A DNA stretch of 64,000 nucleotides. Source: an uncultured Candidatus Saccharimonadales bacterium. Lineage in GTDB: Bacteria; Patescibacteriota; Saccharimonadia; UBA4664. The position numbers and the translations under genes were made by a program. The stretch is taken from NCBI GenBank assembly GCA_964467655.1, contig CAYXSN010000007.1:682-64681 (forward strand), read 5' to 3'. Of this stretch, positions 29,287-56,446 are shown piece by piece (the first letter of the stretch is position 1; every line of letters begins with the position of its first letter). The notes beneath the pieces were generated by a model, which had not been told where the DNA came from, searched no databases, and was given only the letters and a program-made list of their open reading frames with translations.

Positions 29287-29289
29287 TTA

Positions 29290-29500: not shown

Positions 29501-29503
29501 CAT

Positions 29504-32065: not shown

Positions 32066-32075
32066 AGGAGCCCAT

Positions 32076-32690: not shown

Positions 32691-32696
32691 ATCAGC

Positions 32697-34642: not shown

Positions 34643-34651
34643 ATTTGAAGA

Positions 34652-41372: not shown

Positions 41373-41394
41373 ATTGCTCTTAACGCCTTTGATA

Positions 41395-43430: not shown

Positions 43431-43433
43431 AGC

Positions 43434-43775: not shown

Positions 43776-43893
43776 GACAAACCCCCGCTCCGTTCTTTTA
43801 AGTCACTATCTCACTACATATACAACAGACAGTTTACACATGGTAAATATTATTTCAAAGCATAAGCAAAATTCTTAATGTATAATCTGTAAC

Positions 43894-44325
43894 ATGTACA
43901 AGCGATTTCTGGAGAAGCTTCGGAGAACTGACCGCAAGAAGCGGGGCGTAGTTCTTGGCGCAGCAGGCCTGGCGGTGATTATAATTGTCCTGTTGCTAGC
44001 ACAGCTTGCCCGGCCTGAACGCTCAGTAGCCGCGTACTGCAAGGTCTACAAGCAGGAAAAGACCCGACTCAGCGCTATGTCCAGTAACTCCAACCCCTAC
44101 CCATCGGGTGTATTCGACGTAAGTGTCACTGACGCAGCACAGATCGCTACCTCGTTCGGCAAGCTCGACCCGGTCGCACCCAAAGAAGTTGAGCCAGAGG
44201 TAAACAGCCTTCAAAAGCTCTACCAGGACATGCACGATAACCCCTCGCACGCAATTAACAATGCCCTCAACGGCGCGTCACTGGATGATAACTTAAAGAC
44301 TTGGACTGAGGCACGATGCAAATGA
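43894..44325 (+). CDS. Hypothetical membrane-anchored protein (divergent from T4SS operon)
   Basis: 143 aa; basic N-terminus and one TM; TGTATAATC 7 nt upstream of ATG. Confidence 0.4.
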   Translation: MYKRFLEKLRRTDRKKRGVVLGAAGLAVIIIVLLLAQLARPERSVAAYCKVYKQEKTRLSAMSSNSNPYPSGVFDVSVTDAAQIATSFGKLDPVAPKEVEPEVNSLQKLYQDMHDNPSHAINNALNGASLDDNLKTWTEARCK

Positions 44326-45167: not shown

Positions 45168-45170
45168 CCT

Positions 45171-46142
45171 ATGATTTTTCCGACATTGTTTAGCCCCCTA
45201 AAAACCATAACCTTACCCGATGGGCTGTGTGTCCGTCCGTTAAGCCGCGGCACCCTAAAAGAGAAACATAGCTCGTTGTATTTAGATGCGATTATGTTGG
45301 AGGGGTATGAGAAGACCGATGGTTCTATTAAGAGTTGGGTTATATTCCACACGTTTATCTTAAATAGCAAGCATACGGCAGAACAATATGAGTGGTCATA
45401 TGGCGGCGGCAGGGATTTCGATTTAACCGACGACAAGCTTGCGAATCAGGTGGATTACGATCATATTTTGCCGTGGGTGTACTTTCACGGCAACGAGGCC
45501 GTAATAGGCGAAAAGGACGACAGCTATGCTGAACTTTATCAGAAGTATAAGGTGTTGCCAGCCGAGAAAATAGGCGTCATTCGCAACTATCTAAACGACT
45601 TTGGCAAGGCGTCCAGGGCGCGTACTATCAATCGTTCAATCAGCGATCCGTCCTATTGGCAGATGATGGTTTACTACTCGATTATTGAGAACATACTGGG
45701 CAGACAGACATTTTGTGGCGAGCAACATCAATGCGAAAAATGCGGTACTGCCAATATCTGCCACTATCCTACGTCCCCATTCGAGTGGACGAAAAACAGG
45801 CTCATAGAAATTACTGGCAGCGACGAAATCGCTGAAGCATATAGAGCTGTCATATGGGCTTTTCGGCAGAAGATTCGTCATGATACGGTTCATAGCGCAT
45901 TGACTCCAAGTGCAAGGGAGGGCTTGCCGCAAGATGAAGACAGGGTGCTATTTGACTTGGAACGTTCAATAGGCAATTACAAAACAGACCATCATGCTGT
46001 AGAGTCGCTTACTTGTATGCTTGCCGATATTGCACGGTTTTTATTGCTAGATGATATATATCAACTAGGAATATTCCCGGAACCGCGGCCGCTGGGAGTC
46101 GTGACGTTAAGGCAACCAGGCGTGGCGGTACGTGGCATCTGA
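45171..46142 (+). CDS. Hypothetical protein with CxxC...CxxC zinc-ribbon-like motif
   Basis: 323 aa; CGEQHQCEKCGTANICHY. Confidence 0.35.
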   Translation: MIFPTLFSPLKTITLPDGLCVRPLSRGTLKEKHSSLYLDAIMLEGYEKTDGSIKSWVIFHTFILNSKHTAEQYEWSYGGGRDFDLTDDKLANQVDYDHILPWVYFHGNEAVIGEKDDSYAELYQKYKVLPAEKIGVIRNYLNDFGKASRARTINRSISDPSYWQMMVYYSIIENILGRQTFCGEQHQCEKCGTANICHYPTSPFEWTKNRLIEITGSDEIAEAYRAVIWAFRQKIRHDTVHSALTPSAREGLPQDEDRVLFDLERSIGNYKTDHHAVESLTCMLADIARFLLLDDIYQLGIFPEPRPLGVVTLRQPGVAVRGI

Positions 46143-46195
46143 TACGGCGAACCCCATAATGGTGTGCATTCATGTCGCAATGTCCTTGTCGAACG

Positions 46196-46744
46196 TCACG
46201 ACCCCTTATTGGCTAAAAAGCCTTCGAGTTTCTTCAGGCCAATTCTTCGAAGCGAATAGGTAATCTGCTCTTCTTCGTTCATCTCGCCCCAGGTCTTATC
46301 TTGTCCATCGGGAACAAAGATGCCATCCGTGCCATAGCCGTTATCGCCGCGCAGCTCATGGGCAATGGTACCCTTCATGATTCCATCAAAGATCTCCACG
46401 CCATTTTCGTCGCAATAACCAAAACACGTTTGCGCATAAGCCACGCGGGACGAGTAATGATTGAGCAACCGACATAGTCCTTGTACTTGCAGTTCCTGCA
46501 GAAACCACTTAATGAGCGGGCCGGGTAACCTCCCAAGCGCTTCAAAGCGAAGAGAAAAATCTTCAACTAGGACGGGTCTTTGTAGTATCCGATAGGCTTC
46601 TTCTGCCTTAATCTTAACGACATCATGCGGGTTAAGTGATTGGATTTCAGGTAAATCAAGTTTATGGTGCCTTACCGGATAACCGAGATGCCATGATATC
46701 TCCTCGGCCTTTTTGGCATGACTAGTAATAAATGTGATGTCCAT
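46196..46744 (-). CDS. rdgB: Non-canonical purine NTP pyrophosphatase (Ham1/RdgB/ITPase family)
   Basis: ITFITSHAKKAEE...GTDGIFVPDG...TWGEMNEEEQITYSLRRIGLKKL matches Ham1 family pattern. Confidence 0.65.
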   Translation of the reverse strand: MDITFITSHAKKAEEISWHLGYPVRHHKLDLPEIQSLNPHDVVKIKAEEAYRILQRPVLVEDFSLRFEALGRLPGPLIKWFLQELQVQGLCRLLNHYSSRVAYAQTCFGYCDENGVEIFDGIMKGTIAHELRGDNGYGTDGIFVPDGQDKTWGEMNEEEQITYSLRRIGLKKLEGFLANKGS

Positions 46745-46747
46745 GGA

Positions 46748-47464
46748 TTATACCTCCGGCTGGAATTTATTCCGGCTCCAGTTCCACAATGCCGGATGGA
46801 CTCGGGAAGGGTTAATACCACTACCGCGCAGAAGTTCTTTCCATGCGGACTCAACCTCAAGTGGGGTTGCGCCTACTGGTGTAATACCGAGATATGCACT
46901 GCACTGCAACACATGAGTGTCGGGGATAATAGAAATTTCCTGAGCATTTTTGAACATTACGTCAGTATAGAGCGACAAAATAAAAGGCCAGTAGTTGGAG
47001 AGCTTCGGGCCCGAAAGATAAGGAAACCGCTTTCGATGAGTCTTTTGTAAAAGCGTAATAAGTTGACCTGCGTCACTCTCGGCCTCTTTGATGATATTTC
47101 GTGGGTCATCCTCGTAATACTCATGGAGCGTTTGCGCAATGGTTGTCCATATCAAGGTGTGCTTATTTGGCTGTAGTGCAAGTTTGTGCGCAGTAAGATC
47201 ACGGCGAGCTTGCTCTGGTGACGTTTCGGCTAGACGTTCTGGGGAAAAGACGTACCGCGTTGCTTCGTCATTCCAGGTTGCCAGCGCGGCAGCCCACATA
47301 GCTGGTGAACTACGCTGAAAGTTAATGCAAACGGGGAGGGTGAAGTATAAGTAATTTTCGCGGCTGCCTTTTGGTAACCCTGGGTTAACTTCGTGTTGCG
47401 CGAGCGTAGGTATTAAGCCTTGTTCGTATAAGGCCAGTAGGCGCTTTACTTTGTCTAGTTGCAT
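46748..47464 (-). CDS. HhH-GPD superfamily DNA glycosylase-like protein
   Basis: YLSGPKLSNYWPF (HhH, LxGxGxKxAN-like) followed by IIPDTHVLQCSAYLG (cf. EndoIII VDTHVFRV catalytic Asp). Confidence 0.45.
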   Translation of the reverse strand: MQLDKVKRLLALYEQGLIPTLAQHEVNPGLPKGSRENYLYFTLPVCINFQRSSPAMWAAALATWNDEATRYVFSPERLAETSPEQARRDLTAHKLALQPNKHTLIWTTIAQTLHEYYEDDPRNIIKEAESDAGQLITLLQKTHRKRFPYLSGPKLSNYWPFILSLYTDVMFKNAQEISIIPDTHVLQCSAYLGITPVGATPLEVESAWKELLRGSGINPSRVHPALWNWSRNKFQPEV

Positions 47465-47599
47465 AGCTTTATTGTACCTTTCTTGGTGACTTCTGGTACA
47501 GTCAGGCGTCTTCTGGAAGATAGTGCCAAGGCGCCCTGACGATCACTGGCGAATGCGGTGTCGGGTGTGCTCGAAACGCGGCAACATTAAGCTTGTCGT

Positions 47600-48052
47600 C
47601 TATTGCAGCAAGAAATGGCTCTTGAAACTAAAATGTTCGTTGGTAGTAATGATTAGATGGTCTCGTAAGGTGACGCCCAAGATCTGGCCTGCCGCTGCGA
47701 GCTGCTGCGTTACGTCAATATCTGCTTTGCTTGGCTGAGGTGAGCCTGAGGGGTGGTTATGCGCAACTATGACCGCTGCCGCTCGGTCTGTTAGCGGCCC
47801 AGCAAACACTTCTCTCGGATGAATTAATGCGCTTTCGAGTGTGCCGATAGTCACTACTCGTCGCGCGATGAGCCTGTGACCACTGTCTAACGAAAGAGAA
47901 ATCACGTGCTCCTGCTTTTTGTCGCGGAAATGCTCAAGGTATTTCAGAATATCAGGAGTGGTGCGCACGGGCTTGCTAACTGGTGGTACATAGGGGTTCT
48001 GGCATACGGGGCACACCTGGTCATCCCTGCAAACCTTTAGGTTGTCAGCCAT
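47600..48052 (-). CDS. radC: RadC-like JAB/MPN-domain protein
   Basis: VIVAHNHPSGSPQPSKADIDVTQQL (JAMM H-x-H-x7-S-x2-D motif); N-terminal CxxC. Confidence 0.75.
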   Translation of the reverse strand: MADNLKVCRDDQVCPVCQNPYVPPVSKPVRTTPDILKYLEHFRDKKQEHVISLSLDSGHRLIARRVVTIGTLESALIHPREVFAGPLTDRAAAVIVAHNHPSGSPQPSKADIDVTQQLAAAGQILGVTLRDHLIITTNEHFSFKSHFLLQ

Positions 48053-48479
48053 AGATTACGATTAACCCATCGCTGGGCATCCAACTAGTTAAAAGATGTA
48101 GTTTTATGCGACTAAACTCGTAGGTGATATAAGCGGTCTGGCATATTGAGGATGTCGCCACGAAGTCGTCAGCTGTAGCAAACGTTATATCTGCCGAGAG
48201 CATATCTTCAGGCGGCTTTGCTGAAAACCGCACGCTCTGCATGTGCGATAGCTGGTCATGCATTTTATCCGTGTATTCGCGGTTTAGAGTTCTGGTGCAC
48301 TCAGTTTGGTACTGGTGCTCTAGCTTGAGCCACTGTTTTTTAACGGCGGCCATCATGCCGGGTGGGTTATCTGTTACGACAATGGCACCACCGCGCCGAT
48401 TGGCAAAGTGACGAGCAACATCCTTGGAAAGAGATTGGCCCGGAGCCACATGTCTCTGTTCAACCCTAAGCCCGTGCAT
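48045..48479 (-). CDS. Hypothetical protein (upstream of, and overlapping, radC-like gene)
   Basis: 144-aa ORF, 8-nt overlap with radC-like start. Confidence 0.35.
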   Translation of the reverse strand: MHGLRVEQRHVAPGQSLSKDVARHFANRRGGAIVVTDNPPGMMAAVKKQWLKLEHQYQTECTRTLNREYTDKMHDQLSHMQSVRFSAKPPEDMLSADITFATADDFVATSSICQTAYITYEFSRIKLHLLTSWMPSDGLIVIYG

Positions 48480-48852
48480 CGCCTACCTCAGTGGCTATGC
48501 TTTGGTTCCAAAAAATGAGCAAAATAAATACAGCCCGCACGGCTGCATATTGCCGGTTTGTCATAATTTCCTAGCTTGGATTTATACTTGTATCTGGACA
48601 CACAGAACCCGCCGCCAGCGGGTTTGCACCCCATGACCCTTTCGAGCCATGACCAAGCTAAGATGCTGAACGACGGGATCAGTACCTAGCTTGGCTTTTA
48701 GACCATGCCATTGCAAGCAATGGTTTAGGTCTTTGAATTGTCCGCCCTTTTGAATTGTGGGCTTATACCTAATATATGATACCGGCTTGATAATGACAAG
48801 CCCTAACATTTGTTAGTGGTTGCTAACTTATGTTAGTCCTACGCTTAATATA

Positions 48853-49077
48853 ATGACAAAACGAATCGACACGATTTACAAGGAAATCGGCAAGCGCATA
48901 TCAAGCGCTCGTGCTAAGCGTGGTTGGACGCAGGAAAAGTTGGCAGCCGAAAGTGAAGTCGCCAGTGCGCACATTGGCTTCATCGAACAGGGGCGCAGGC
49001 GGCCAACGGTCACGACCTTGCACAAATTAGCAACGGCACTCAATACAACTCTCGAAGAACTGTTTAAGGGGTTGTAG
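48853..49077 (+). CDS. XRE-family helix-turn-helix transcriptional regulator (apparently leaderless: TAATAT abuts ATG)
   Basis: RGWTQEKLAAESEVASAHIGFIEQGRRRPTVTTLHKLATAL; ATG 48853 inside 48820 ORF. Confidence 0.65.
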   Translation: MTKRIDTIYKEIGKRISSARAKRGWTQEKLAAESEVASAHIGFIEQGRRRPTVTTLHKLATALNTTLEELFKGL

Positions 49078-49079
49078 CC

Positions 49080-49730
49080 GTGACGCAAATATTTATCTTT
49101 GGCGCGAGTACGGCTTATGGTTCAGGTGCAGAACTAGCGGGGTGGGGTGATTTGCTGAAGCAGTCAATGCTCACAAAAATGTATGGCAAGGACGGCCCCG
49201 GCGAGAAATGCGAGGTCTACAACTTTGCCCAACACGGAGCAACCATTGAGTTTGTGCTTGTAGCCGCTCCCGAGCAGCTCAAATATTATCGGAAGTCCGG
49301 AAAAGTTGTCGCAGTAGTTCAGGTCGGTGGGAACAATATTAAAGCCAAGGGTACGCCTGACGGCTTTGTTGTCTCGCTTGAGGAATATGAGAACCTGATG
49401 TCGCAGCTCATTGAGCGGCTGCGTGTAGGTGTGGATGAACTTGTTATGCTTGATGCCCTAATGCCCGTTGACGAGAGCAAGACCAACCCAGAAATTGATA
49501 AGACCACCGGCCGTAAGTCGTATTTCACGAACGATAGGATATTTCTGTTCAATCACGCACTCGGTAAACTTTGTCGAAAGTATAAGGTACATCATATTGA
49601 CCTCACGACTGACCCAAAGGAATGGGTAAAAGACCGTGTTTCTGCGGATGGCCTGCATCCTAATCAAGCTGGCCATCGCTACATCTTCGATAAAGTGTCT
49701 CCCCAGATCGAAAAGTTACTAGAAAGCTAG
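49080..49730 (+). CDS. SGNH/GDSL hydrolase (esterase/lipase family)
   Basis: block I IFIFGASTAYGSG; block V DGLHPNQAGH. Confidence 0.65.
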   Translation: MTQIFIFGASTAYGSGAELAGWGDLLKQSMLTKMYGKDGPGEKCEVYNFAQHGATIEFVLVAAPEQLKYYRKSGKVVAVVQVGGNNIKAKGTPDGFVVSLEEYENLMSQLIERLRVGVDELVMLDALMPVDESKTNPEIDKTTGRKSYFTNDRIFLFNHALGKLCRKYKVHHIDLTTDPKEWVKDRVSADGLHPNQAGHRYIFDKVSPQIEKLLES

Positions 49731-49927
49731 TGCTTATTCTCGCTAAGCTCTTGCTGTAATTGCTCAAGAAGCTCGGGGTTGTTATGCGCCATACTGTGCA
49801 CGCCTGCGCGTAAATCTTCCAGCATAGCGATGGCGTTCTCTCGGGTTGCTTTTTCTGGTTCGTGAGTCTTTAGATAATGCATAACGCTTTCAATATCCTG
49901 CTCGCTGATTTCGTACGTGTCGCTCAT
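49727..49927 (-). CDS. Small acidic hypothetical protein
   Basis: 66-aa ORF downstream of PLD nuclease gene. Confidence 0.3.
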   Translation of the reverse strand: MSDTYEISEQDIESVMHYLKTHEPEKATRENAIAMLEDLRAGVHSMAHNNPELLEQLQQELSENKH

Positions 49928-49936
49928 GACCTCTCC

Positions 49937-50422
49937 TTATACTATGTGCTTGTAAAGTTTCGTAAATTGGATCATCTGTTGTGCGAGTGCCTTCGATTCG
50001 ACCCGGCGCATGATCTCGCAGCTATCGTTTTGCGAAAGGATATTGAGGCTCCCTTCAAACAAAATCTTCCTATCCAGTATAGCCAGCTTGCGATGATGTC
50101 CGCCAGTATAAAGAACCGTTGCGCCGAGATCAAACAGATTACCTAGCGTTTCGTACGCTTCGCCGCGCATATACTCATCTTCGTGCTCGTCGGGGTGCTT
50201 GGTGTTGACGACGATTTTGACACCGCGTGCCCGCAATTTACGCAAAGTTGGCATAAGCCTGGCTAGCCGACGTGAAGTGACGAACGGACTTTCGATTATG
50301 ACCTCTTTAGTGCAGCGCTCCAGATCGCGGATAAACCTCGGGTAGAAGGTATCTTGGTCAAGCAGGCTGGATGTAGGCAGCTCGGTAGGGGACGGGGCGG
50401 CAAAGTTAAAAGGCCTAAGCAT
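49937..50422 (-). CDS. Phospholipase-D-superfamily (HKD) nuclease, Nuc-like
   Basis: HKD motif HHRKLAILDRKILFEGSLN; start taken at ATG 50420-50422 (ORF opens at 50440); ATG overlaps stop of small ORF 50415..50555 (ATGCTTAG). Confidence 0.6.
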   Translation of the reverse strand: MLRPFNFAAPSPTELPTSSLLDQDTFYPRFIRDLERCTKEVIIESPFVTSRRLARLMPTLRKLRARGVKIVVNTKHPDEHEDEYMRGEAYETLGNLFDLGATVLYTGGHHRKLAILDRKILFEGSLNILSQNDSCEIMRRVESKALAQQMIQFTKLYKHIV

Positions 50423-50555
50423 CGCTCGCCTCCATGTCATTCAAATAAACAACTTCACCATTGATGAAAGCCAGCCCGAACCGTTCAAGTTTTGAGTGTA
50501 TCAACCGTAACTCAGCCTCAAAGTGGTTCCACCTACAATCCATTAGGCGCACCAT
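50415..50555 (-). CDS. 46-aa small protein, family member 1 (MVRLMDCRWNHFEAELRLIHSKLERFGLAFINGEVVYLNDMEASDA)
   Basis: four intact paralogs of identical 46-aa length in window; translationally coupled to PLD nuclease gene. Confidence 0.5.
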   Translation of the reverse strand: MVRLMDCRWNHFEAELRLIHSKLERFGLAFINGEVVYLNDMEASDA

Positions 50556-50642
50556 TTTAGAGTTACAGATAGAAAAGCGTTCCAGATCGGGCGCTTTTTT
50601 ATATTGAGACCGCATCGTAATCTGTTGCATTGGTTAGAGTCC
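50525..50642. repeat. Composite repeat unit U1: box1 (GGTTCCACCTAcAATCCAtTaGgCGCACCAT = start of small ORF, antisense) + terminator hairpin AAAAGCGTTCCAGATCGGGCGCTTTTTT (50573-50600) + box3 ATATTGAGACCGCATCGTAATCTGTTGCATTGGTTAGAGTCC
   Basis: near-identical to U2 (51482-51600) over ~75 bp; partial copies at 52415, 53476, 54355, 55367, 55539. Confidence 0.8.
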
Positions 50643-50682
50643 TTTATGGCTGAAAATCTCACTGGTTGATATACTTGTATTC

Positions 50683-51375
50683 ATGTTTAGATCTGTCGCC
50701 TTTTTTGATATCGACAACACCATGTATGACGGGTTTTCTTACTTTGCACTTTTAGAAAGGCAGGTTAGTGAGGGCCTAATAAAGCAGGAGACACTTACCG
50801 CTGCACTGGCGAGTATGCAAAAATATAAGGCCAAGACCCAGGATTATGAAACGACAATCGTTGAGATGCTCGATATTTATGCCGCAGGCTTAAAAGGCGC
50901 CGAACATACTACTGTCCTCGAATCAACGAGGCAGTTTTACGAAAAATCGGACAAATTCTTCGCCTATGTTAGCCCAACCATTAAAGAGCTAAAAGGCTCA
51001 CATGATATCGCCCTCGTGACTGGCGAACCCCAGTTTGTCGCCGAGGCGGTGAAGGATCTCTTCGGTGCGAACTCGTATCATTCTACTGAATATGAGGTTA
51101 TTGACGGGGTATTCACGGGCCGTATTAAGTCCTACCTTGCCTCGCGTCACGAAAAGCACGATGCCATCAAGCATCTCATGCAAGGTCATAGCGTCAAAAA
51201 TTCTTTTGCGTTTGGAGATTCTGAGGGAGATATAGAAATGCTGCGAGCAGTGGAATATCCTATATGTCTCAATGCCACTGACGGCTTACGTGCAATTGCC
51301 ACCGAGCAGGGCTGGAATATGCCCGACATTGACGCGGTGACCAAACTTGTCGCAAGTCTTACTAAGGCGGCCTAA
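50683..51375 (+). CDS. HAD-superfamily hydrolase (HAD-IB/SerB-like phosphatase)
   Basis: motif I FFDIDNT; motif IV FGDSEGDIEML. Confidence 0.7.
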   Translation: MFRSVAFFDIDNTMYDGFSYFALLERQVSEGLIKQETLTAALASMQKYKAKTQDYETTIVEMLDIYAAGLKGAEHTTVLESTRQFYEKSDKFFAYVSPTIKELKGSHDIALVTGEPQFVAEAVKDLFGANSYHSTEYEVIDGVFTGRIKSYLASRHEKHDAIKHLMQGHSVKNSFAFGDSEGDIEMLRAVEYPICLNATDGLRAIATEQGWNMPDIDAVTKLVASLTKAA

Positions 51376-51512
51376 AACTCATTGTCGTACTCTTGACCTG
51401 AGTCGAGTACAATCCGACCGCCGATATTTATTAAGCCAAATAGGACCAATTTTTCATACATCAGGATGCTTATCTCGATGTGGTTCCACCTATAATCCAG
51501 TTGCCGCACCAT
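51372..51512 (-). CDS. 46-aa small protein, family member 2 (MVRQLDYRWNHIEISILMYEKLVLFGLINIGGRIVLDSGQEYDNEF)
   Basis: hand translation; below ORF-track length cutoff; shares N-terminal MVRxxDxRWNH with paralogs. Confidence 0.45.
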   Translation of the reverse strand: MVRQLDYRWNHIEISILMYEKLVLFGLINIGGRIVLDSGQEYDNEF

Positions 51513-51600
51513 TTTCAGAATTACAGATAGGAAGGCGTTCCAGGTCGGGCGCTTTTTTATATTGAGACCGCATCGTAATCTGTTGCATCGGTTAGAGTCC
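51482..51600. repeat. Composite repeat unit U2 (box1 + terminator hairpin 51532-51557 + box3)
   Basis: see U1. Confidence 0.8.
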
Positions 51601-51652
51601 TTTCTGTTTGATGGCCAAGCTCGTTGTGTAACTCTTATGATAAAATGTCAGT

Positions 51653-52300
51653 ATGCAGCTCGCGCGACGCTTTAGAAATTTGAGTAATCGCTATCCATTC
51701 GCTGGGCCACTTATGTGGCTGCTGACGTTTCAGTTCTTCATTGCGGAGATTGTGACTGCGAACAGTTGGGCCAAGTTGCCCTACAGTTATCGATTGAACG
51801 CCATTAGCGATCTGGGCGCAGTTGGATGCGGTCTATTCGATGACGACCGTTTCGTGTGCTCGCCACTTCATGGAATTATGAATGGCTCGTTGATCCTACT
51901 GGGCATCACGATGGCCGTAGGATCGGTGCTCCTGTACACACGCTTACAAAAGAGTAAGGTTGGGTTTAGCCTGATGACATTAGCAGGCATTGGCGCATTC
52001 TTGGTTGGAATATTCCCCGAGGACACGGTCTTTTGGGTGCACATCGTAGGTCAAGACCTGGCGTTCGTATTCGGGAACGTTGCTTTGATAGTTTTTGGTT
52101 TTACACTGCCGGCACCGCGCGTATTTCGTTGGTATAGCATTACATCGGGAACAGTAGCACTCGTAGCACTCGTATTATTTTTATCGCATCATCGCCTCTT
52201 CTTGGAACTTGGCGGTATGGAGCGAACCGTAGCCTATCCGCTCCTCCTTTGGCTGATAGTAGCGGGTGGATATTTTGCAACAAGACGAGTTCGTAACTGA
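51653..52300 (+). CDS. Polytopic membrane protein, DUF998-like
   Basis: 215 aa, ~6 TM; N-terminal ...LNAISDLGAV motif. Confidence 0.4.
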   Translation: MQLARRFRNLSNRYPFAGPLMWLLTFQFFIAEIVTANSWAKLPYSYRLNAISDLGAVGCGLFDDDRFVCSPLHGIMNGSLILLGITMAVGSVLLYTRLQKSKVGFSLMTLAGIGAFLVGIFPEDTVFWVHIVGQDLAFVFGNVALIVFGFTLPAPRVFRWYSITSGTVALVALVLFLSHHRLFLELGGMERTVAYPLLLWLIVAGGYFATRRVRN

Positions 52301-52304
52301 ATAC

Positions 52305-52445
52305 CTAAGCATCGCCTTCCTCAACTTCGCAAAGATAAACGACCTCTCCACTCATGAAAACTAGCCCTAATTGTTCAAGCTTTGACTGTATCAACCGCAG
52401 GCCAGACTCTAGGTGGTTCCACCTATAATCCACTTGCTGCACCAT
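52305..52445 (-). CDS. 46-aa small protein, family member 3 (MVQQVDYRWNHLESGLRLIQSKLEQLGLVFMSGEVVYLCEVEEGDA); ORF track extends it to 52487 with an alternative start
   Basis: paralog; same length and same terminal GATGCTTAG as member 1. Confidence 0.5.
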   Translation of the reverse strand: MVQQVDYRWNHLESGLRLIQSKLEQLGLVFMSGEVVYLCEVEEGDA

Positions 52446-52500
52446 AAACGAAATCACCGTTTTTAATGAACCCGTTATAGGGTTCATTTAGTTTATAAGA
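52415..52500. repeat. Partial repeat unit U3: box1 (52415-52445) followed by two hairpins (AAACG-n7-CGTTTTT; AATGAACCC-gttata-GGGTTCATT) instead of box3
   Basis: seen directly. Confidence 0.6.
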
Positions 52501-52579
52501 CACTTTTGAAACAGGTTTCTTCTACTCTCAGCAAGACGGTAGTTACCTGTATAATGAGGGTAACCTATGGGGTACCTTC

Positions 52580-53317
52580 TTGAAAAACAATAGCTACTAC
52601 AAAGTCACGCAACTTGACACCGATTTGTGGGCTTTTGAAGATGTAAAAAGTAGCGAGGACTCAATAAGCTATCTTTTGTGTGGCAAAAACAAAGCATTAG
52701 TGTTTGATACGGGGCTTGGCTTAAGCCCCGTATTGCCGCTAATTAAAGAAATAACTGAATTACCGCTCATAGCTTGTCTGTCACACTGGCACTTTGACCA
52801 TTCAGGAGGGGCACATGAGTTTGATGAGGTGATTGGCTGGCATTCACAACAGATGAAAAATACTAGTGAGAACGGCGTTAGCTTAGATGTCATTAAAGCT
52901 AACGTTAGCACTACCTTTTGGAAAAGTATTGGAAGAGGTAATTATCAAACAAAAGGTTTCCCACTTCAGATGATTAGCCAGGAACAAACACTAGACTTAG
53001 GAGGTTTTGAACTTAAAGTTTTACATACGCCTGGCCATACTTCTGACTCTATTTGTCTATATGAAGGACAGAAGAAGTGGTTATTCGCAGGTGATAGCGC
53101 ATACCCTGGTCCAATATATTTGCATTTTGCTGATTCTGATACTAATACGTACCAGGATTCTTTAACAAAGCTTGCGAAGCTTGATGTCGAAAGTATTTTC
53201 CCAGGCCATAACTCTCTGAAAACATCAAAAGACTTGCTGGTTGAGTTAGATAAAATGCTAACTAACCCCTCCTACAAGTCACAACTTTTCCCTGAACTGA
53301 GTATTCGAAAGTCTTAG
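52580..53317 (+). CDS. MBL-fold metallo-hydrolase
   Basis: HWHFDHSGG (HxHxDH), downstream H and D ligands. Confidence 0.7.
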   Translation: MKNNSYYKVTQLDTDLWAFEDVKSSEDSISYLLCGKNKALVFDTGLGLSPVLPLIKEITELPLIACLSHWHFDHSGGAHEFDEVIGWHSQQMKNTSENGVSLDVIKANVSTTFWKSIGRGNYQTKGFPLQMISQEQTLDLGGFELKVLHTPGHTSDSICLYEGQKKWLFAGDSAYPGPIYLHFADSDTNTYQDSLTKLAKLDVESIFPGHNSLKTSKDLLVELDKMLTNPSYKSQLFPELSIRKS

Positions 53318-53475
53318 ATCACCTGGATGGGGCTTTATTTTTGATCTAGTGTGAGTCCCGTCCCTTACCTACTAAGTAAATAATTCCGATAAGGGACTTT
53401 CAGTATTTTCCTCCAACGGGCTATTTCATCCCTGATGGGGTGTAAACTTTTTTGGAGCTGCTGTACCAGTTTAGT

Positions 53476-53556
53476 TTTACAGATAAGTGGATGTTCCAGA
53501 TGAGGCGTCTATTCACGTTGAGCTCGACATATAATCTGCTACCTTGGTTAGGCCCT
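53476..53556. repeat. Partial diverged repeat unit U3b (hairpin region + box3-like ...ATAATCTGCTACCTTGGTTAGGCCC) lacking box1
   Basis: alignable to U1 50563-50645 at ~65% identity. Confidence 0.5.
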
Positions 53557-53619
53557 TTCTGTGCGCCGAGCTGCGATTTTAGCTTGACATAGTAAGTACA
53601 CGTAAGTACAATTAAAGTT

Positions 53620-53871
53620 ATGGTACGAGCAATAGTCACGAAATCAGGGAATTCATATGCGCTTCGAGTGCCGAAGCGATATATTGACGACAATAAACTA
53701 CGGCTAGGCGATGTGGTAACTCTTGAGGAGCCACTTACGCTGCAGAGGAATGCTCTGGAAGCGCTCGTGAGGCAGGGGAAAACACACGGAGCGATTAGCG
53801 GAATTGCTGACCCGGTGAAATGGCAACGCCAGCAGCGGCAATCAAGCGACCCCTGGGAAGAACTAAAGTGA
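53620..53871 (+). CDS. AbrB/MazE/SpoVT-fold antitoxin
   Basis: MVRAIVTKSGNSYALRVPKRYIDDNKLRLGDVV swapped-hairpin pattern. Confidence 0.6.
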   Translation: MVRAIVTKSGNSYALRVPKRYIDDNKLRLGDVVTLEEPLTLQRNALEALVRQGKTHGAISGIADPVKWQRQQRQSSDPWEELK

Positions 53872-54239
53872 TTTTGCTAGATAGCAATATAGTAATCTAT
53901 CTCCGTGACCCGCAATGGGGGGAGAAGATTTTCAATCAAATTGATGGAGAAAGACTAGCAACCTGTAACGTAATAATTTCAGAAGTCCTGGGCTTTAAGG
54001 GGCTACCAAAAGCTGACGCTGATCATTTCGAGCGCTTTTTTGTAACCATGAAAAACTTTCAGTTTGATGAGGCGGTTACAAAGATGGTGATAGAGCTTAG
54101 GAGAAGGTATGTAATCCAATTGCCCGATGCAATTATTGCAGCTTCAGCTCTAGTAAACGATCTCACACTTTATACTCATAATGCAGAAGATTTCGAAAAG
54201 ATTTCAGATCTGCTACTCTTTGATCCGCTTGCACCATAG
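53868..54239 (+). CDS. vapC: PIN-domain toxin (VapC-like)
   Basis: GTG start overlapping antitoxin stop (GTGA); VILLDSNIVIYL (first acidic residue), further conserved D/E positions. Confidence 0.6.
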   Translation: MILLDSNIVIYLRDPQWGEKIFNQIDGERLATCNVIISEVLGFKGLPKADADHFERFFVTMKNFQFDEAVTKMVIELRRRYVIQLPDAIIAASALVNDLTLYTHNAEDFEKISDLLLFDPLAP

Positions 54240-54244
54240 AGACT

Positions 54245-54385
54245 CTACTTGAGGCAGCCGAACGGGTACTCGACATACACGTGACTACCATTTATACAGG
54301 CGATCCCGAATCGCTCAAGCTTAGAGTGTACTAGCCGTAATCCAACCTCAAGGAGGTTCCACCTATAATCCACTTGCTGCACCAT
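54245..54385 (-). CDS. 46-aa small protein, family member 4 (MVQQVDYRWNLLEVGLRLVHSKLERFGIACINGSHVYVEYPFGCLK)
   Basis: hand translation; below ORF-track cutoff. Confidence 0.45.
   Translation of the reverse strand: MVQQVDYRWNLLEVGLRLVHSKLERFGIACINGSHVYVEYPFGCLK
54355..54385. repeat. Repeat box1 copy U4 (GGTTCCACCTATAATCCACTTGCTGCACCAT)
   Basis: identical to U3 box1 over 31 nt. Confidence 0.7.
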
Positions 54386-54402
54386 TCTGAAATAACAGGT
54401 AT

Positions 54403-54430
54403 GACACATCGAATAATGTGTCTTTTGTTT
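54403..54430 (+). terminator. Intrinsic terminator (GACACAT-cgaata-ATGTGTC followed by TTTTGTTT)
   Basis: seen directly. Confidence 0.55.
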
Positions 54431-54538
54431 CTCGAGACTACTACATCTACCTCTGTACCGCTGAGTGTAAGTCTCATTTGCTTAAAATGCTCTGCGTACG
54501 CTACGATTAAGTTGAATTATTCATAATCGCGCGCGGGG

Positions 54539-55249
54539 ATGCCTATGAGAAAGACCGATCAGGCAGGCTTCAGCATCATTGAAGCATTACTTATCTTAGT
54601 GGTTGTTGGCATCTTAGGTTTCACAGGTTGGTCTGTATACCATTCTCGAACGGTTACTAACAAAGATTACAGTTCATCAGCTTATACGCAGACCACGTCG
54701 CCTGATCTATATAAGGGTTGGAAATCCGCTAGCCTTAAGTATGAAAAAATGAGTTTTAAATACCCAAACACATGGCAAATCAGCGACACCTCTCAAGATG
54801 AGGTAGGGACGGGCGGTACTGCAACGCCAGGCGCTGATGACGTTACGCTGACAAGCCCTACTGGTCTTTACGTGAGCATTATGTCGGGCCAGGCAGGCGT
54901 TGACACCAACGGCTCGCTGATAGGCTTATCAACCTCGCGACCCATCAACACGCTTGGTGGTAGTTATTTCCTCGTTTATTACACACATAAGGCTCAGAGT
55001 ACTACCGAAGCACGGGGGGCTTGCATTAATAAGACTGCAAGCTCTACGGGTGGCCCGTCGATAGCCAGTAAAAATATCCAACTGGCAGGCATAGCAAGCG
55101 GTGCTGCTATATCTGCAGCTAATCTAATTTGTATTGGCTACCCAGCGCCAAACAGCACATCCCCCGTGCCAGTGAAGCCTGTGTCGGCGTTTGAGCAGGA
55201 CGCGTCATACAACGACGCCAAACTCATTCTTGAGTCACTTACGTATTAG
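54539..55249 (+). CDS. Type IV pilin-like protein (prepilin-type N-terminal cleavage/methylation signal)
   Basis: MPMRKTDQAG/FSIIEALLILVVVGILGF: Gly-Phe cleavage site, Glu+5, hydrophobic helix; Thr/Ser-rich globular part. Confidence 0.55.
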   Translation: MPMRKTDQAGFSIIEALLILVVVGILGFTGWSVYHSRTVTNKDYSSSAYTQTTSPDLYKGWKSASLKYEKMSFKYPNTWQISDTSQDEVGTGGTATPGADDVTLTSPTGLYVSIMSGQAGVDTNGSLIGLSTSRPINTLGGSYFLVYYTHKAQSTTEARGACINKTASSTGGPSIASKNIQLAGIASGAAISAANLICIGYPAPNSTSPVPVKPVSAFEQDASYNDAKLILESLTY

Positions 55250-55290
55250 TTTAGATAGTATAAATGTAACTCCCTACACTTACTTAGAAG

Positions 55291-55571
55291 CTAAATGCTC
55301 TCGATAGGGCTCATCCAATATTTCTCTCCATCGAGCCAGTTCAACAGTAATAGAATGTAAACATTTTCCCACTTGCAGCACCAGGAATAATCTACAGATA
55401 AGAAAGCGCACCAGAACGGGCGCTTTTTGGTTCTGTACTGTAATCTGTTGCAGTGGTTAGGGTGCTTACCGGATCTTAAATCGTAAGTAAAGCCTAGTTT
55501 GTCGAGTTTTGCGTACATACGCATCAGACTTGCCACAAACTGATTCCACCTAAGATCCACCTCGCGCACCA
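55291..55571 (-). CDS. Small-protein family member 5, extended (MVREVDLRWNQFVASLMRMYAKLDKLGF...) reading through repeat U5; ORF track opens it at 55707
   Basis: N-terminus matches family; lacks the usual stop after ~46 codons, so possibly a degenerate copy. Confidence 0.3.
55367..55464. repeat. Repeat unit U5 (truncated box1 CCCACTTGCAGCACCA + hairpin 55401-55427 + box3-like GTAATCTGTTGCAGTGGTTAGGGTGC)
   Basis: seen directly. Confidence 0.6.
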
Positions 55572-55614
55572 TTATATTGTTCGTAACCTTCAACCGGTTG
55601 CATTGGTCAGCGCC
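55539..55614. repeat. Repeat unit U6 (box1-like GATTCCACCTAAGATCCACCTCGCGCACCAT + box3-like GGTTGCATTGGTCAGCGCC, no hairpin)
   Basis: seen directly. Confidence 0.5.
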
Positions 55615-55672
55615 CCTTGCGCGCGCAAAACTCACCACACAGAAAGCCAAAGTATCTTGGTAAACTAGTTGT

Positions 55673-56446
55673 ATGAGACAAAACGATAGCAAGCAGCGGG
55701 GCGCCATAACGAGTGTGCTCTACTATTTCTGCACATTACTTGTCATAATGATCCCGTTTTGGGTATTGGGATCAGTTACACGTATTCACGGCCTGCCATT
55801 CAACATGCAATTGAATGTGTTGTTGGTACTCGTTATGCCGGTAGTTGCGCTCTACTTTATTGCCCGTACGTATGGTACATCGTCACTCAGACGGGTTGCC
55901 ATCGATTGTCTGCCGGGCCATCGCGCCAGTAATCTTGCGCTAGCGATTGCGTTTCTGACGGTGCCAGCTGTGGCAATGCTTGTGTTCTCTGCGGCTCATT
56001 TCTTTGTGGCGTTTGACGGCTGGCCGGTCGCATTCGTACTGGTACCGGCATATTTCATCGTTTACTACTTTGCTGCAGCGTTCGAAGAGATAGGTTGGAC
56101 TTGGTACGCTACGCCGATCTTGGGCAGGAAAATGAGCGTTGTTGGTACGGGCGTCACCGTCGGTGTAGTCTGGGCTGCTCTGCATACATTGCCATGGTAT
56201 CAGCAGAACGGCTGGTGGTTTATGACTGGGATGATCATCTTTTCCGTACTAAGCCGCATTATCATGACCTGGGTATATCTGTGTAACGGCAGACTGCTTT
56301 GGTTAAGCATCGCTTATCACGCTATGATCAATACGACATTCACACTGTTTCACCCAGGTAGCCCGTATGCTAATCCGTTCTTGTATGCAATAGCTCTTAC
56401 GCCATTGGTAATTTGGATCTTGTATCGTGCTAATTCCCATGATTAA
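55673..56446 (+). CDS. CPBP-family (CAAX protease/Abi) intramembrane metalloprotease
   Basis: multi-TM; motif 1 AAFEEIGW; motif 2 AALHT; motif 3 AYHAMIN. Confidence 0.6.
   Translation: MRQNDSKQRGAITSVLYYFCTLLVIMIPFWVLGSVTRIHGLPFNMQLNVLLVLVMPVVALYFIARTYGTSSLRRVAIDCLPGHRASNLALAIAFLTVPAVAMLVFSAAHFFVAFDGWPVAFVLVPAYFIVYYFAAAFEEIGWTWYATPILGRKMSVVGTGVTVGVVWAALHTLPWYQQNGWWFMTGMIIFSVLSRIIMTWVYLCNGRLLWLSIAYHAMINTTFTLFHPGSPYANPFLYAIALTPLVIWILYRANSHD

What the first reader, a model, noticed from the sequence alone, without database searches (positions are those of the whole stretch)
50415..55707. Cassette-like array: same-strand cargo genes separated by a composite repeat with a conserved antisense 46-aa ORF
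Six plus-strand genes of unrelated function are each bracketed by copies of one repeat family. The genes are a HAD phosphatase, a DUF998-like membrane protein, an MBL hydrolase, MazE/PIN, a type IV pilin-like protein and a CPBP protease. A full repeat unit has three parts, read on the plus strand:
- box1, GGTTCCACCTATAATCCAnTTGCnGCACCAT;
- a hairpin flanked by an A-run and a T-run;
- box3, ATATTGAGACCGCATCGTAATCTGTTGCATTGGTTAGAGTCC.
Read on the minus strand, box1 is the first 10 codons (MV(R/Q)x(V/M/L)D(Y/C)RWN(H/L)) of a small ORF. The ORF is exactly 46 codons in four copies (50415-50555, 51372-51512, 52305-52445, 54245-54385). A fifth, extended copy lies at 55291-55571. Two copies share the same terminal GATGCTTAG, and copy 1 is translationally coupled to a PLD nuclease. 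U1 and U2 are near-identical over 75 bp. Other units are partial or rearranged.
I do not recognise this repeat plus small-protein family. The layout resembles integron cassette arrays or tandem att-bounded islets, but it has neither attC core sites nor a nearby tyrosine integrase.
Basis: seen in the sequence. Interest (0 to 1): 0.85.

Follow-up and report, generated by a model that had tools for sequence, protein, structure and literature searches.

The report
Stacked integrase sites bracketing gene cassettes
The repeats are stacked copies of the right-end attachment site of a conjugative element that inserts into a glycine tRNA gene with a serine integrase, they bracket single-gene cassettes that recur reshuffled across Saccharibacteria, and the 46-codon 'small gene' is the tail of the integrase gene, cut off each time the element integrates.

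Summary
Five box1/small-ORF copies lie at 50.4-55.6 kb, where 0.03 are expected by chance, and two more eroded copies sit beside them.

A large serine integrase (26700-28433, minus strand) abuts tRNA-Gly(GCC) 24 kb upstream. Its ORF reads antisense through the tRNA 3' end (...MVR-VQGL*).

Box1 ends in the same CGCACCA|T as the tRNA. Rejoining the two ends fuses the integrase in frame to the 46-aa ORF. Such uninterrupted fusions exist in other contigs. The small ORF is therefore the integrase's detached C-terminal tail, and box1 is the element-side arm of the attachment site.

The hairpin+box3 module is what directly follows tRNA-Gly in relatives that lack the element. Copy 1 is thus the attR of a 23.8-kb conjugative element (26723-50554).

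The same tRNA|B-cargo-A|B-cargo-A layout recurs across about 95 further Saccharibacteria contigs that carry box1; 28 sources hold two or more copies. I delimited 57 cassettes with a median length of 836 nt. Their 81 ORFs fall into 55 clusters, and some cassettes occupy different positions in different genomes.

This is a new variant of a known kind. The nearest precedents are the Dehalococcoides ssrA islands, SCC composites and ICE/CIME accretion. How the arrays grow is inferred, not shown.

The parts
26647..26722 (+). tRNA-Gly(GCC), the integration target (B arm of attL). Its 3' end is ...CCCGCACCA, with the core CGCACCA at 26716-26722.
   Evidence: ARAGORN and Rfam; sequence. Similarity to a second host breaks exactly after CCA.
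26700..28433 (-). Large serine recombinase (integrase), 577 aa. The ORF runs through the tRNA terminator and antisense into the tRNA 3' end, ending ...NPDVSF-MVR-VQGL*.
   Evidence: Pfam Resolvase+Recombinase+Zn_ribbon_recom; PHROG integrase; translation; 283 homologues.
26723..50554 (.). Integrated conjugative element, about 23.8 kb. It holds the integrase, Replic_Relax (29417-30274), T4CP (35640-38555), a VirB4/TraC-like gene (39094-40830), a TrbL/VirB6-like gene (41928-43430), RadC, LOOT RNA (48620-48731), a 66-aa ORF, PLD and the tail ORF.
   Evidence: Pfam. Both ends are defined against a second host genome (L102/L031) and against relatives with tRNA-Gly|B directly joined. GC is lower than in the flanks.
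49937..50422 (-). PLD-family (PLDc_2) protein. Its ATG overlaps the stop of the tail ORF. It follows every full-length tail copy in other genomes.
50415..50555 (-). Tail ORF copy 1 (46 aa), the detached 3' end of the integrase ORF. Its 5' 30 nt are box1, the P arm of attR (profile A1, 50457-50554).
   Evidence: The reconstructed attP gives an in-frame fusion. Natural fusions P0247/L099 and P0230/L100.
50558..50659 (+). Module B1: conserved TTACAGATA, a plus-strand intrinsic terminator hairpin (about 50569-50602), a T-run and box3. This is the sequence that follows tRNA-Gly in element-free relatives (B' arm of attR).
   Evidence: Near-identical to the sequence after tRNA-Gly in L021. Hairpin covariation and U.G pairs on the + strand.
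50683..51375 (+). Cassette 1 cargo: HAD hydrolase.
51372..51512 (-). Tail remnant copy 2 (A2, 51422-51511), followed by module B2 (51516-51620).
51653..52300 (+). Cassette 2 cargo: DUF998 membrane protein. The same gene, 99% identical, lies next to A and B modules in L056.
52305..52445 (-). Tail remnant copy 3 (A3, 52349-52444). It keeps the PLD start junction GATGCTTAG. A different terminator hairpin (52465-52488) follows, with no B module.
52580..53317 (+). Cassette 3 cargo: metallo-beta-lactamase-fold hydrolase. An eroded repeat end (53457-53468) follows it.
53472..53565 (+). Module B3, then the MazE (53620-53871) / PIN (53820-54239) cassette. The same B-MazE-PIN-A cassette occurs in another genome (L030, 98%/87% aa identity).
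54245..54385 (-). Tail remnant copy 4 (A4, 54289-54384), followed by a non-B terminator hairpin (54403-54422).
54539..55249 (+). Cassette cargo: pilin-like protein. An eroded repeat end (55368-55383) and module B4 (55393-55467) follow it.
55481..55572 (-). Tail remnant copy 5 (A5). With B4 only 14 nt upstream it forms an empty cassette. A partial B (55572-55622) and the CPBP gene (55673-56446) follow.

Best explanation
The window holds an integrative conjugative element (26723-50554). It is inserted by a large serine recombinase into the 3' end of tRNA-Gly(GCC), with the crossover at or next to the shared core CGCACCA|N.

The integrase ORF spans attP. In the joined (excised) form it continues for another 43-46 codons (the 'small ORF') and then overlaps the start of a PLD gene. 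Integration separates this tail and PLD from the integrase body and moves them to the far end of the element.

Box1 plus the tail is therefore the element-derived P arm. The hairpin+box3 module (B) is the terminator region that normally follows the tRNA, i.e. the B' arm. Copy 1 is the current attR.

The further copies are older attR-type junctions (A|B or A|x), stacked head to tail downstream. Each closes a one- or two-gene cassette.

The following is inferred, not shown. Arrays change because any A|B junction can serve as attR. Excision with a distal copy would carry cassettes away with the element. Excision with the proximal copy after integration in a new host would leave them behind next to the tRNA. 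This would explain why B follows tRNA-Leu in some genomes and why the same cassette sits at different ranks.

The tail is a real coding segment, modelled as a helix plus a beta hairpin. Its role (regulating integrase stability or directionality, or coupling PLD expression to the excised state) is not known.
For: (1) An integrase with Resolvase, Recombinase and Zn_ribbon domains abuts the tRNA and ends MVR-VQGL* inside it.

(2) The tRNA 3' end and box1 share CGCACCA|T. The reconstructed attP reads ...NPDVSF-MVR-LMDCRWNHF...SDA* in one frame. The same holds for a second element, L059.

(3) Natural uninterrupted junctions exist. L099 carries a P' arm matching the window's P' arm over the ~33 nt next to the core, followed by a divergent box1 and tail. 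L100 carries an integrase 3' remnant, the tail and PLD. Other recombinase C-termini are also fused to the tail: P0134, P0261, P0133, P0171, and more divergently P0070 and P0097.

(4) Integrase homologues end in antisense-tRNA translations such as MVRVQGL and MVRERGLEPP.

(5) In relatives, module B follows tRNA-Gly directly. It does so in 13 of the 21 tRNA-Gly junctions scored, and L021 is nearly identical to the sequence after window copy 1.

(6) Comparison with a second host shows 83-94% identity inside the left end and 65-76% inside the right end. Outside both CGCACCA| junctions, identity is at background, 54-59%.

(7) Every full-length 46-48 aa tail is followed by PLD. Copies without PLD have variable, often truncated ends of 22-47 aa.

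(8) The layout tRNA|B-cargo-A|B-cargo-A|x recurs. Targets include tRNA-Leu and tRNA-Arg, which also end in CGCACCA.

(9) Cassettes are modular. A dCMP-deaminase cassette is first after the tRNA in L050, L084, L087 and L095 but lies behind another repeat in L058 and L088. An isochorismatase cassette is first in L002 and second in L097. The MazE-PIN cassette is shared with L030.

(10) The coding signal in codons 12-28 shows entropy pos2 < pos1 < pos3 and pN/pS of 0.53-0.55, against 0.94-1.5 in shifted frames. An HMM search found 273 clusters.

(11) The ICE attP arms show dyad motifs 14-26 bp from the junction: 8 of 13 positions in L059, and CACC/AATCC blocks in the window.
Against: - No excised circle or empty site was seen for this particular genome. 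The flanking genes had no syntenic match among the fetched loci.
- Canonical serine integrases do not recombine attP with attL or attR. Array growth therefore needs the alternative-attR route or homologous recombination, and neither was observed.
- The origin of a new cassette (B on the left, A on the right of one gene) is unexplained.
- 20 of 57 cassettes start with a terminator other than B.
- The A|B consensus shows no dyad symmetry, as expected for an attR. Whether the orphan sites are still active is unknown.
- The L099 joint has cargo genes but no detectable B next to the tail, so it does not directly support pick-up.
- Most loci were retrieved with a box1 pattern, which biases box1 conservation figures upward. 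Copies found without the pattern still show 73% identity in box1 against 52% in the rest.
Confidence: 0.8

Rival explanations
1. The copies are inert scars. Whole elements integrated one after another at the tRNA and each decayed in place by deletion. What remains each time is its right end (the tail remnant) and one accessory gene. The cassettes do not move as units.
For: Copy 3 keeps the first 9 nt of PLD. Two copies are heavily eroded. Orphan tails are truncated. 20 of 57 cassettes begin with a non-B terminator, which could be a remnant of an element's left end. Serine integrases are not expected to use attR-like sites as targets; this rests on established knowledge (Rutherford and Van Duyne model, listed).
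Against: This model needs many independent deletions that each leave one gene plus a repeat, with a median cassette of 836 nt. Serial integration also needs a free attB each time. The same cassette occurs at different ranks and with different neighbours. Module B follows tRNA-Leu as well as tRNA-Gly. Box1 stays better conserved than the rest of the remnant.
Confidence: 0.25
2. The 46-aa ORF is an independent small-protein gene, for example a partner or regulator of the PLD nuclease. It was duplicated together with its upstream regulatory region.
For: The sequence shows coding-type conservation. The length of 46-48 aa is conserved and the ORF is translationally coupled to PLD in about 25 loci. 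The fold model is confident (pLDDT 81). In the integrated state it may well be made as a separate peptide.
Against: The first base of its start codon lies across the crossover and takes all four values, ATG, GTG, TTG and CTG. The ORF is in frame with, and in nature contiguous with, integrase C-termini of several lineages. Copies without PLD are truncated or variable. All copies sit at CGCACCA| junctions downstream of tRNAs, in the tRNA's orientation.
Confidence: 0.08
3. The repeat is a non-coding RNA or regulatory module (terminator, 3' UTR, sRNA, or a MITE/REP-like element) that spreads on its own. The antisense ORF would then be incidental.
For: The B hairpin is a structure-conserved plus-strand terminator with compensatory changes. 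Box1 third-codon positions are unusually conserved.
Against: No Rfam family matches it. Codon-periodic variation is present in the ORF frame and absent in shifted frames. Copies occur only at tRNA-linked junctions and never dispersed; the rest of the 64 kb has none. A and B are separable, since B alone follows tRNAs.
Confidence: 0.04
4. It is a true integron-like system, with a dedicated cassette recombinase acting on folded attC-like sites.
For: The cassettes are small, mostly single-gene, with diverse cargo. New or extra cassettes seem to lie proximal to the tRNA.
Against: No tyrosine recombinase was found among the ORFs scanned at 26-58 kb. The junctions have no attC-like dyad. Cargo lies on either strand (52 plus, 29 minus). 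The repeat is explained by the serine integrase att site.
Confidence: 0.03

Closest known systems
Dehalococcoides ssrA-specific genomic islands (DsiB serine recombinase), McMurdie et al. 2011, PMC3146451
   Same: Both are tandem islands downstream of a small-RNA gene's 3' end. Both are bounded by direct repeats in one orientation. The serine recombinase gene sits on the reverse strand next to attL. Some islands lack an integration module and are interpreted as cis-mobilisable elements moved by accretion.
   Different: There the target is tmRNA, the crossover lies in the T-loop and the repeat is a 20-bp copy of the target. Here the target shares only about 7 nt (CGCACCA). The roughly 100-140 nt repeat comes from the element and is the severed end of the integrase ORF. 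The units here are far smaller (median 836 nt, mostly one gene), and the driver carries type IV secretion genes.
SCCmec / SCC composite islands (CcrAB/CcrC large serine recombinases); from my own knowledge and as summarised in PMC3146451
   Same: A serine-recombinase element inserts at the 3' end of a conserved gene. Tandem arrays contain recombinase-less pseudo-elements separated by repeated integration-site sequences.
   Different: SCC targets rlmH (orfX), a protein-coding gene. Its units are 3-60 kb. The ccr genes do not span the attachment site.
ICESt1/ICESt3 with CIMEs: tandem accretion and cis-mobilisation (Pavlovic et al. 2004, cited in PMC3146451; reviewed in PMC5704250)
   Same: Decayed elements that keep their att sites sit next to a functional ICE and can be co-excised. 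This matches the proposed pick-up and drop-off route.
   Different: Those elements use a tyrosine integrase with identical core repeats. Co-excision is experimentally shown there and only inferred here.
Integrons
   Same: Both are arrays of small, mostly single-gene cassettes of unrelated function, in one main orientation, next to a fixed anchor.
   Different: Here there is no IntI tyrosine recombinase, no attC hairpin sites and no common Pc promoter. Several cassettes carry their own promoter-like sites and terminators.
Integration-dependent gene truncation in mycobacteriophage BPs and relatives (PMC4557955); lambda sib retroregulation and Tn916 joint-dependent transcription (my own knowledge)
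   Same: attP lies inside an ORF or transcript, so integration removes its 3' end and gives different products in the free and integrated states.
   Different: In BPs the split gene is the repressor and the integrase is a tyrosine recombinase. Here the split gene is the serine integrase itself, and a downstream PLD gene is uncoupled at the same time. No functional data exist for this case.

Membership tests
Integrative (conjugative) element with a large serine recombinase | A large serine recombinase gene (Resolvase + Recombinase + zinc ribbon) at one end of the insert. | tested here: met
   26700-28433(-), Pfam and PHROG integrase.
Integrative (conjugative) element with a large serine recombinase | An insert bounded by attL and attR that share a short core with the target, with the target gene kept intact. 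| tested here: met
   CGCACCA|T lies at 26716-26723 and 50548-50555. ARAGORN/Rfam call an intact tRNA. Similarity to a second host breaks at both junctions.
Integrative (conjugative) element with a large serine recombinase | An unoccupied target (attB) exists in relatives. | tested here: met
   tRNA-Gly is followed directly by module B in L002, L011, L017, L021, L028 and others. No empty site was found for this same species.
Integrative (conjugative) element with a large serine recombinase | A joined attP form (circular intermediate). | tested here: inconclusive
   Contiguous P|P' joints occur in L099 and L100. These short contigs cannot show circularity, and they are not from this genome.
Integrative (conjugative) element with a large serine recombinase | attP with imperfect dyad symmetry around the crossover. 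| tested here: inconclusive
   L059 matches at 8 of 13 symmetric positions. The window has CACC/AATCC blocks with a 1-nt offset. Only two elements were examined.
Integrative (conjugative) element with a large serine recombinase | Conjugation genes: coupling protein, VirB4-type ATPase and a relaxase. | tested here: met
   T4CP, TraG/TraC-like P-loop, TrbL and Replic_Relax hits. The relaxase assignment rests on a modest Pfam hit only (PF13814, 36 bits).
Tandem accretion array / cis-mobilisable elements | Recombinase-less segments bounded by att-type repeats in direct orientation, adjacent to a functional element at the same target. | tested here: met
   Five clear and two eroded A copies, all on the + strand downstream of attR. 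The same layout occurs in 28 sources with two or more copies.
Tandem accretion array / cis-mobilisable elements | Co-excision or transfer with the neighbouring element. | not testable with these tools
   This needs reads or experiments. The only indirect support is cassette reshuffling between genomes.
Integron | An IntI-type tyrosine recombinase next to the array. | tested here: not met
   No Phage_integrase-type hit among the ORFs scanned between 26 and 58 kb. ORFs at 1-26 kb were not scanned.
Integron | attC sites: imperfect palindromes that fold as single strands. | tested here: not met
   No dyad above the shuffled-column null in A|B or A|x junction profiles. The only hairpin is a terminator in B.
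Type I toxin-antitoxin or other free-standing small-protein gene | An autonomous small ORF with its own start signals. For type I toxins, the ORF is hydrophobic. | tested here: not met
   The first base of the start codon is supplied by the flank and is variable. The protein is modelled as a soluble helix plus hairpin with an acidic end. It is contiguous with the integrase in joined forms.
Integration-dependent split gene (BPs-like) | attP lies inside an ORF, so free and integrated forms encode different C-termini. | tested here: met
   The integrated integrase is 577 aa and ends VQGL. The joined form carries the 43-46 aa tail.
Integration-dependent split gene (BPs-like) | The two protein forms differ in activity or stability. 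| not testable with these tools
   No functional data. The tail has no Pfam, PHROG or PDB match.

The most novel reading that the evidence does not exclude
Saccharibacteria may carry a serine-integrase-driven, integron-like gene-capture platform at CGCACCA-ending tRNA genes. In this reading every stacked A|B junction is a live attR. The conjugative element would then load and unload single-gene cassettes, many of them nucleotide-salvage enzymes and toxin-antitoxin pairs, as it moves between hosts. In addition, splitting the integrase ORF at attP would act as a built-in switch. The tailed integrase plus PLD would be made only from the excised circle, and a tail-less integrase from the integrated copy. 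That would set recombination directionality or stability without a classical directionality factor, or together with one.
Probability: 0.3. Interest if true: 0.85.

Novelty: new variant of a known kind. Interest (0 to 1): 0.6.

Why it matters
- It identifies the mobile element and the recombinase behind a recurrent hypervariable locus in Saccharibacteria, a lineage of reduced-genome episymbionts whose routes of gene gain are poorly known.
- It places a type IV secretion cluster inside an att-bounded, integrase-carrying insert. A recent survey treated Patescibacteria T4SS as largely chromosomal and co-opted, because relaxases were seldom found (PMC12102498).
- It gives exact, testable att sites for a family of tRNA-targeting large serine integrases. 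Such enzymes are of practical interest for genome engineering.
- It shows an unusual anatomy: the integrase ORF spans attP, so each integration leaves a recognisable 46-codon remnant. These remnants can be used to find the arrays.
- It warns annotators that the 273 'small protein' clusters, and the tRNA-antisense C-termini of integrase homologues, are by-products of this anatomy.

Tried and rejected
1. Box1 as a tRNA T-arm or 3' fragment. Only the last 7 nt (CGCACCA) match the tRNA and the remainder does not fold as a T arm, so I rejected this.

2. Box3 as part of the att core. It lies 75-100 nt from the junction. Its 11-nt identity to the tRNA-Gly T arm (GGTTAGAGTCC) remains unexplained.

3. 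Dyad symmetry in the A|B and tRNA|B junction profiles. None rose above shuffled-column controls.

4. Pfam, PHROG and PDB searches with the tail, and PHROG and PDB searches with PLD and/or the 66-aa ORF, gave no informative match beyond PLDc_2.

5. The word-indexed protein search with the tail profile found only 4 proteins. The exhaustive HMM search was needed to find 273 clusters.

6. Synteny of the window's flanking genes in the fetched loci. None was found, so no same-species empty site could be shown.

7. Rfam on the window and 16 loci gave no family for A, B or the ~110-nt element that follows some A copies.

8. L099 as direct evidence for cassette pick-up. It has no B module next to the tail, so it is neutral.

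9. The plus-strand reading frames of box1 differ between copies, so coding on that strand is rejected.

10. Literature searches found no description of this locus in Saccharibacteria.

Full report
**1. Checking the observation**

Box1 occurs five times between 50525 and 55559, always on the plus strand. Chance expectation is 0.03, and there is no copy elsewhere in the 64 kb. The four 46-codon minus-strand ORFs and the cargo genes are as described.

Three details need correction.
- The fifth ORF starts at 55572, not 55571.
- Its 93-aa 'extension' is read-through into the reverse complement of a hairpin+box3 module.
- Two further eroded repeat ends (53457-53468 and 55368-55383) directly abut hairpin+box3 modules. 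With these, every cassette ends in a repeat.

From here on, A means the roughly 100 nt made of box1 plus the 5' part of the small ORF. B means the roughly 100 nt made of TTACAGATA, the hairpin, the T-run and box3.

**2. The missing recombinase**

The tail profile has no Pfam match. The first database search returned only four small proteins. One of them lies in a syntenic locus (L001) with the order small ORF, PLD, 66-aa ORF, GDSL, LOOT RNA, RadC and T4SS genes, but with entirely different genes on the other side.

Scanning 185,579 species genomes with a degenerate box1 pattern gave 29 stretches, most from records titled Saccharibacteria or Saccharimonadia MAGs. In these genomes:
- the codon taken as the start is NTG with all four bases;
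- ORF lengths range from 22 to 48 codons;
- every full-length 46-48 aa copy is followed by PLD;
- tRNA-Gly(GCC) lies upstream in the same orientation in nine loci.

In the window, tRNA-Gly(GCC) is at 26647-26722. A 577-aa large serine recombinase (Resolvase, Recombinase and Zn_ribbon domains) lies immediately beside it on the minus strand. Its ORF runs through the tRNA terminator and antisense into the tRNA, ending ...NPDVSF-MVR-VQGL*.

**3. The small ORF is the integrase tail**

The tRNA ends CGCACCA|T, and so does box1. On the minus strand both read ATG GTG CG., giving M-V-R in the same frame. Joining the right end of the insert (up to 50554) to the left end (from 26723) gives one ORF...GINELFKIKKDTPNPDVSF-MVR-LMDCRWNHFEAELRLIHSKLERFGLAFINGEVVYLNDMEASDA*. 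Its stop overlaps the PLD start. A second element, L059, gives an equivalent in-frame fusion.

Such joints also exist uninterrupted in nature.
- L099 carries a P' arm that matches the window's over the ~33 nt next to the core, followed by ATGGTGCG and a divergent box1 and tail (P0247).
- L100 carries an integrase 3' remnant, the tail and PLD (P0230).
- Recombinase C-termini of other lineages are fused to the same tail: P0134, P0261, P0133, P0171, and more divergently P0070 and P0097.

Most of the 283 integrase homologues instead end in antisense-tRNA translations such as MVRVQGL, MVRVKRL or MVRERGLEPP. These are the integrated form.

An exhaustive HMM search found 273 clusters of tail-like sequences. 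Most are 40-115 aa gene calls with artificial N-terminal extensions.

The tail shows coding-type variation in codons 12-28. Entropy runs pos2 < pos1 < pos3, and pN/pS is 0.53-0.55, against 0.94-1.5 in shifted frames. It is modelled as a 24-residue helix plus a beta hairpin, with pLDDT 81. It has no PHROG or PDB match.

**4. Hairpin+box3 is the tRNA's own downstream region**

In relatives without an insert, the sequence immediately after tRNA-Gly is module B. In L021 it is nearly identical to the sequence after window copy 1. B follows the tRNA in 13 of the 21 tRNA-Gly junctions scored.

The hairpin is a 13-bp stem kept by compensatory changes. It holds many U.G pairs that form only on the plus strand. 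That makes it an intrinsic terminator in the tRNA's direction.

Copy 1 is therefore attR: a P arm (box1 and the tail) joined to a B' arm (module B). The tRNA|integrase joint is attL.

A second host genome carries a related element with a 91% identical integrase. Compared with it, the window is 83-94% identical inside the left end and 65-76% inside the right end. Outside both CGCACCA| junctions, identity is at background (54-59%).

The insert (26723-50554) encodes Replic_Relax, a coupling protein, a VirB4/TraC-like ATPase, TrbL, RadC and the LOOT RNA. GC content is 0.47-0.52 in the insert and 0.43-0.475 in the array. The flanks are at 0.53-0.57, apart from the first 2 kb after the array and the first 2 kb of the window.

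The two arms of the reconstructed attP carry inverted motifs 14-26 bp from the junction. L059 matches at 8 of 13 positions, and the window has CACC/AATCC blocks. This fits serine-integrase sites but rests on only two elements.

**5. The array is a recurrent, modular feature**

After adding 65 metagenome contigs, I scanned 99 sources with nhmmer profiles of A and B. This gave 133 A hits and 73 B hits. The layout tRNA-Gly|B-cargo-A|B-cargo-A|x recurs. It also occurs after tRNA-Leu(CAG/GAG) and tRNA-Arg(CCG), which likewise end in CGCACCA.
- 28 sources hold two or more A copies. The window has the most, with five.
- I delimited 57 cassettes, with a median length of 836 nt. Forty have a single ORF and 37 start with B.
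- Their 81 ORFs fall into 55 clusters.
- Cargo includes dCMP/cytidine deaminases, NUDIX, HD and YfbR-like phosphohydrolases, CYTH, GNAT, isochorismatase, ROK, peptide deformylase, UDG, PemK/MazF pairs and an IS200 transposase.

The same cassette appears at different ranks and with different neighbours.
- The deaminase cassette is first after the tRNA in four contigs but lies behind another repeat in L058 and L088. Different cassettes follow it in different contigs.
- The isochorismatase cassette is first in L002 and second in L097.
- The window's B-MazE-PIN-A cassette recurs in L030 (98%/87% aa identity).
- Its DUF998 gene recurs in L056 (99% identity).

Box1 is better conserved than the rest of the remnant, even in copies found without the search pattern (73% against 52%). 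This fits continued constraint on the site, but it does not prove it.

**6. How it most likely works**

Shown:
- The window holds an att-bounded insert with a serine integrase at a tRNA 3' end.
- The integrase ORF spans attP.
- The repeats are attR-type junctions.
- Cassettes are shared and reordered between genomes.

Inferred:
- Each A|B junction is a P arm joined to the canonical B' arm. Any of them could therefore pair with attL at excision.
- Use of a distal copy would take cassettes along with the element.
- Integration at a tRNA in a new host, followed by excision with the proximal copy, would deposit them next to that tRNA.
- This needs only the canonical attP x attB and attL x attR reactions. 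It explains B after tRNA-Leu, tRNA-proximal additions, and the non-B flank after the last repeat in arrays.
- It does not explain how a gene first acquires a B on its left and an A on its right.
- In-place decay of whole elements (the rival model) must also contribute. Copy 3 keeps 9 nt of PLD, two copies are eroded, and B4-A5 is an empty cassette.

Speculative:
- Integration strips the tail from the integrase and uncouples PLD. It probably also uncouples the long minus-strand gene set that runs down to the T4SS genes from the integrase transcript.
- This could be a state-dependent switch, as in mycobacteriophage BPs (PMC4557955). Lambda sib and Tn916 are further analogies from my own knowledge.

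**7. Comparison with what is known**

The closest published system is the Dehalococcoides ssrA genomic islands. These are tandem islands at the tmRNA 3' end, with the serine recombinase on the reverse strand next to attL. They include integrase-less islands interpreted as cis-mobilisable elements moved by accretion (PMC3146451). SCC composite islands and ICESt/CIME accretion are of the same kind.

This case differs in four respects:
- the tiny, mostly single-gene units;
- a repeat that derives from the element rather than the target, and is the severed end of the integrase ORF;
- the tRNA class used as target;
- the host lineage.

It fails the integron membership tests. I found no IntI among the ORFs scanned, no attC dyad, and cargo on both strands.

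I found no paper describing this locus in Saccharibacteria. A 2025 survey of Patescibacteria T4SS does not mention integrases or tRNA-linked insertion.

**8. Verdict**

The feature is real and non-random. The cassette-array reading is right in outline. The 'unknown small-protein repeat' is explained. It is a new variant of a known kind, not a new category. I put confidence in the core identification at about 0.8, and confidence that the orphan junctions are still active at about 0.5.

Noticed in passing
window 48620-48731 (-); L001 5918-6032; L031 6599-6713: LOOT RNA (Rfam RF03000, 77-85 bits) lies inside the conjugative element, between the HTH/GDSL genes and the 144-aa/RadC genes. It holds the same relative position in two other copies of the element, so this orphan RNA motif appears to be linked to the element.
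   Followed up: partly
window 26647-26722; tRNA-Gly in L002, L011, L017, L021, L028; L018/L039: tRNA-Gly(GCC) in these genomes has a non-canonical T-loop, TTAGAGT (A at position 56), together with a D-loop GTTGTTAGAG (T at 19). L018 and L039 have TTTGAGT with GTTGATAGAG (A19/T56). This looks like covariation of the 19:56 tertiary pair.
   Followed up: no
L059 5143-8191 (locus coordinates): A 9-kb sister element (tRNA-Gly|integrase ... PLD-tail) carries a diversity-generating retroelement. It has a reverse transcriptase, bAvd and a pilin-like protein with N_methyl and InlB B-repeat domains as the likely target, plus Replic_Relax.
   Followed up: partly
L001 (minus strand, about 3960-4090), L018, L019, L027, L059, just after the A|terminator: A conserved ~110-nt element with two stems ends in a tRNA-Gly 3' fragment (..GGTTAGAGTCCCGTAACCCGCACCA) and contains an inverted tRNA-like piece. 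It has no Rfam match. It may be the footprint of another tRNA-Gly-targeting element.
   Followed up: no
window 50619-50650, 51577-51608, 53535-53565, 55442-55467; B modules in other loci: Box3 shares an exact GGTTAGAGTCC with the tRNA-Gly T arm and is conserved across genomes, 75-100 nt beyond the junction. Its role is unresolved: a fossil att site, a promoter or a leader.
   Followed up: partly
proteins P0024, P0033-P0040, P0059-P0068 and others: Many database integrase homologues carry C-terminal extensions such as MVRERGLEPP... or MAGDEGFEPP.... These are antisense translations of the target tRNA gene. They are a systematic annotation by-product, and they also reveal each element's target tRNA.
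   Followed up: partly
L101 (IMG/VR UViG_3300050015_001016) 1708-14015: A contig filed as viral carries a coupling protein, Replic_Relax, a C5 methylase, an amidoligase, two tandem large serine recombinase genes and an A copy near its end. It is more likely a conjugative or mobilisable element than a virus.
   Followed up: partly
window 1-64000 (composition): GC falls from 0.53-0.57 in the flanks to 0.47-0.52 in the element and 0.43-0.475 in the cassette array. This fits foreign origin.
   Followed up: yes
cassettes across L002-L098: Cargo is rich in small nucleotide-metabolism and housekeeping-type enzymes: dCMP deaminase, NUDIX, HD/YfbR 5'-deoxynucleotidase, UDG, CYTH and peptide deformylase. 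Toxin-antitoxin pairs are also common. This may matter for salvage-dependent episymbionts.
   Followed up: partly
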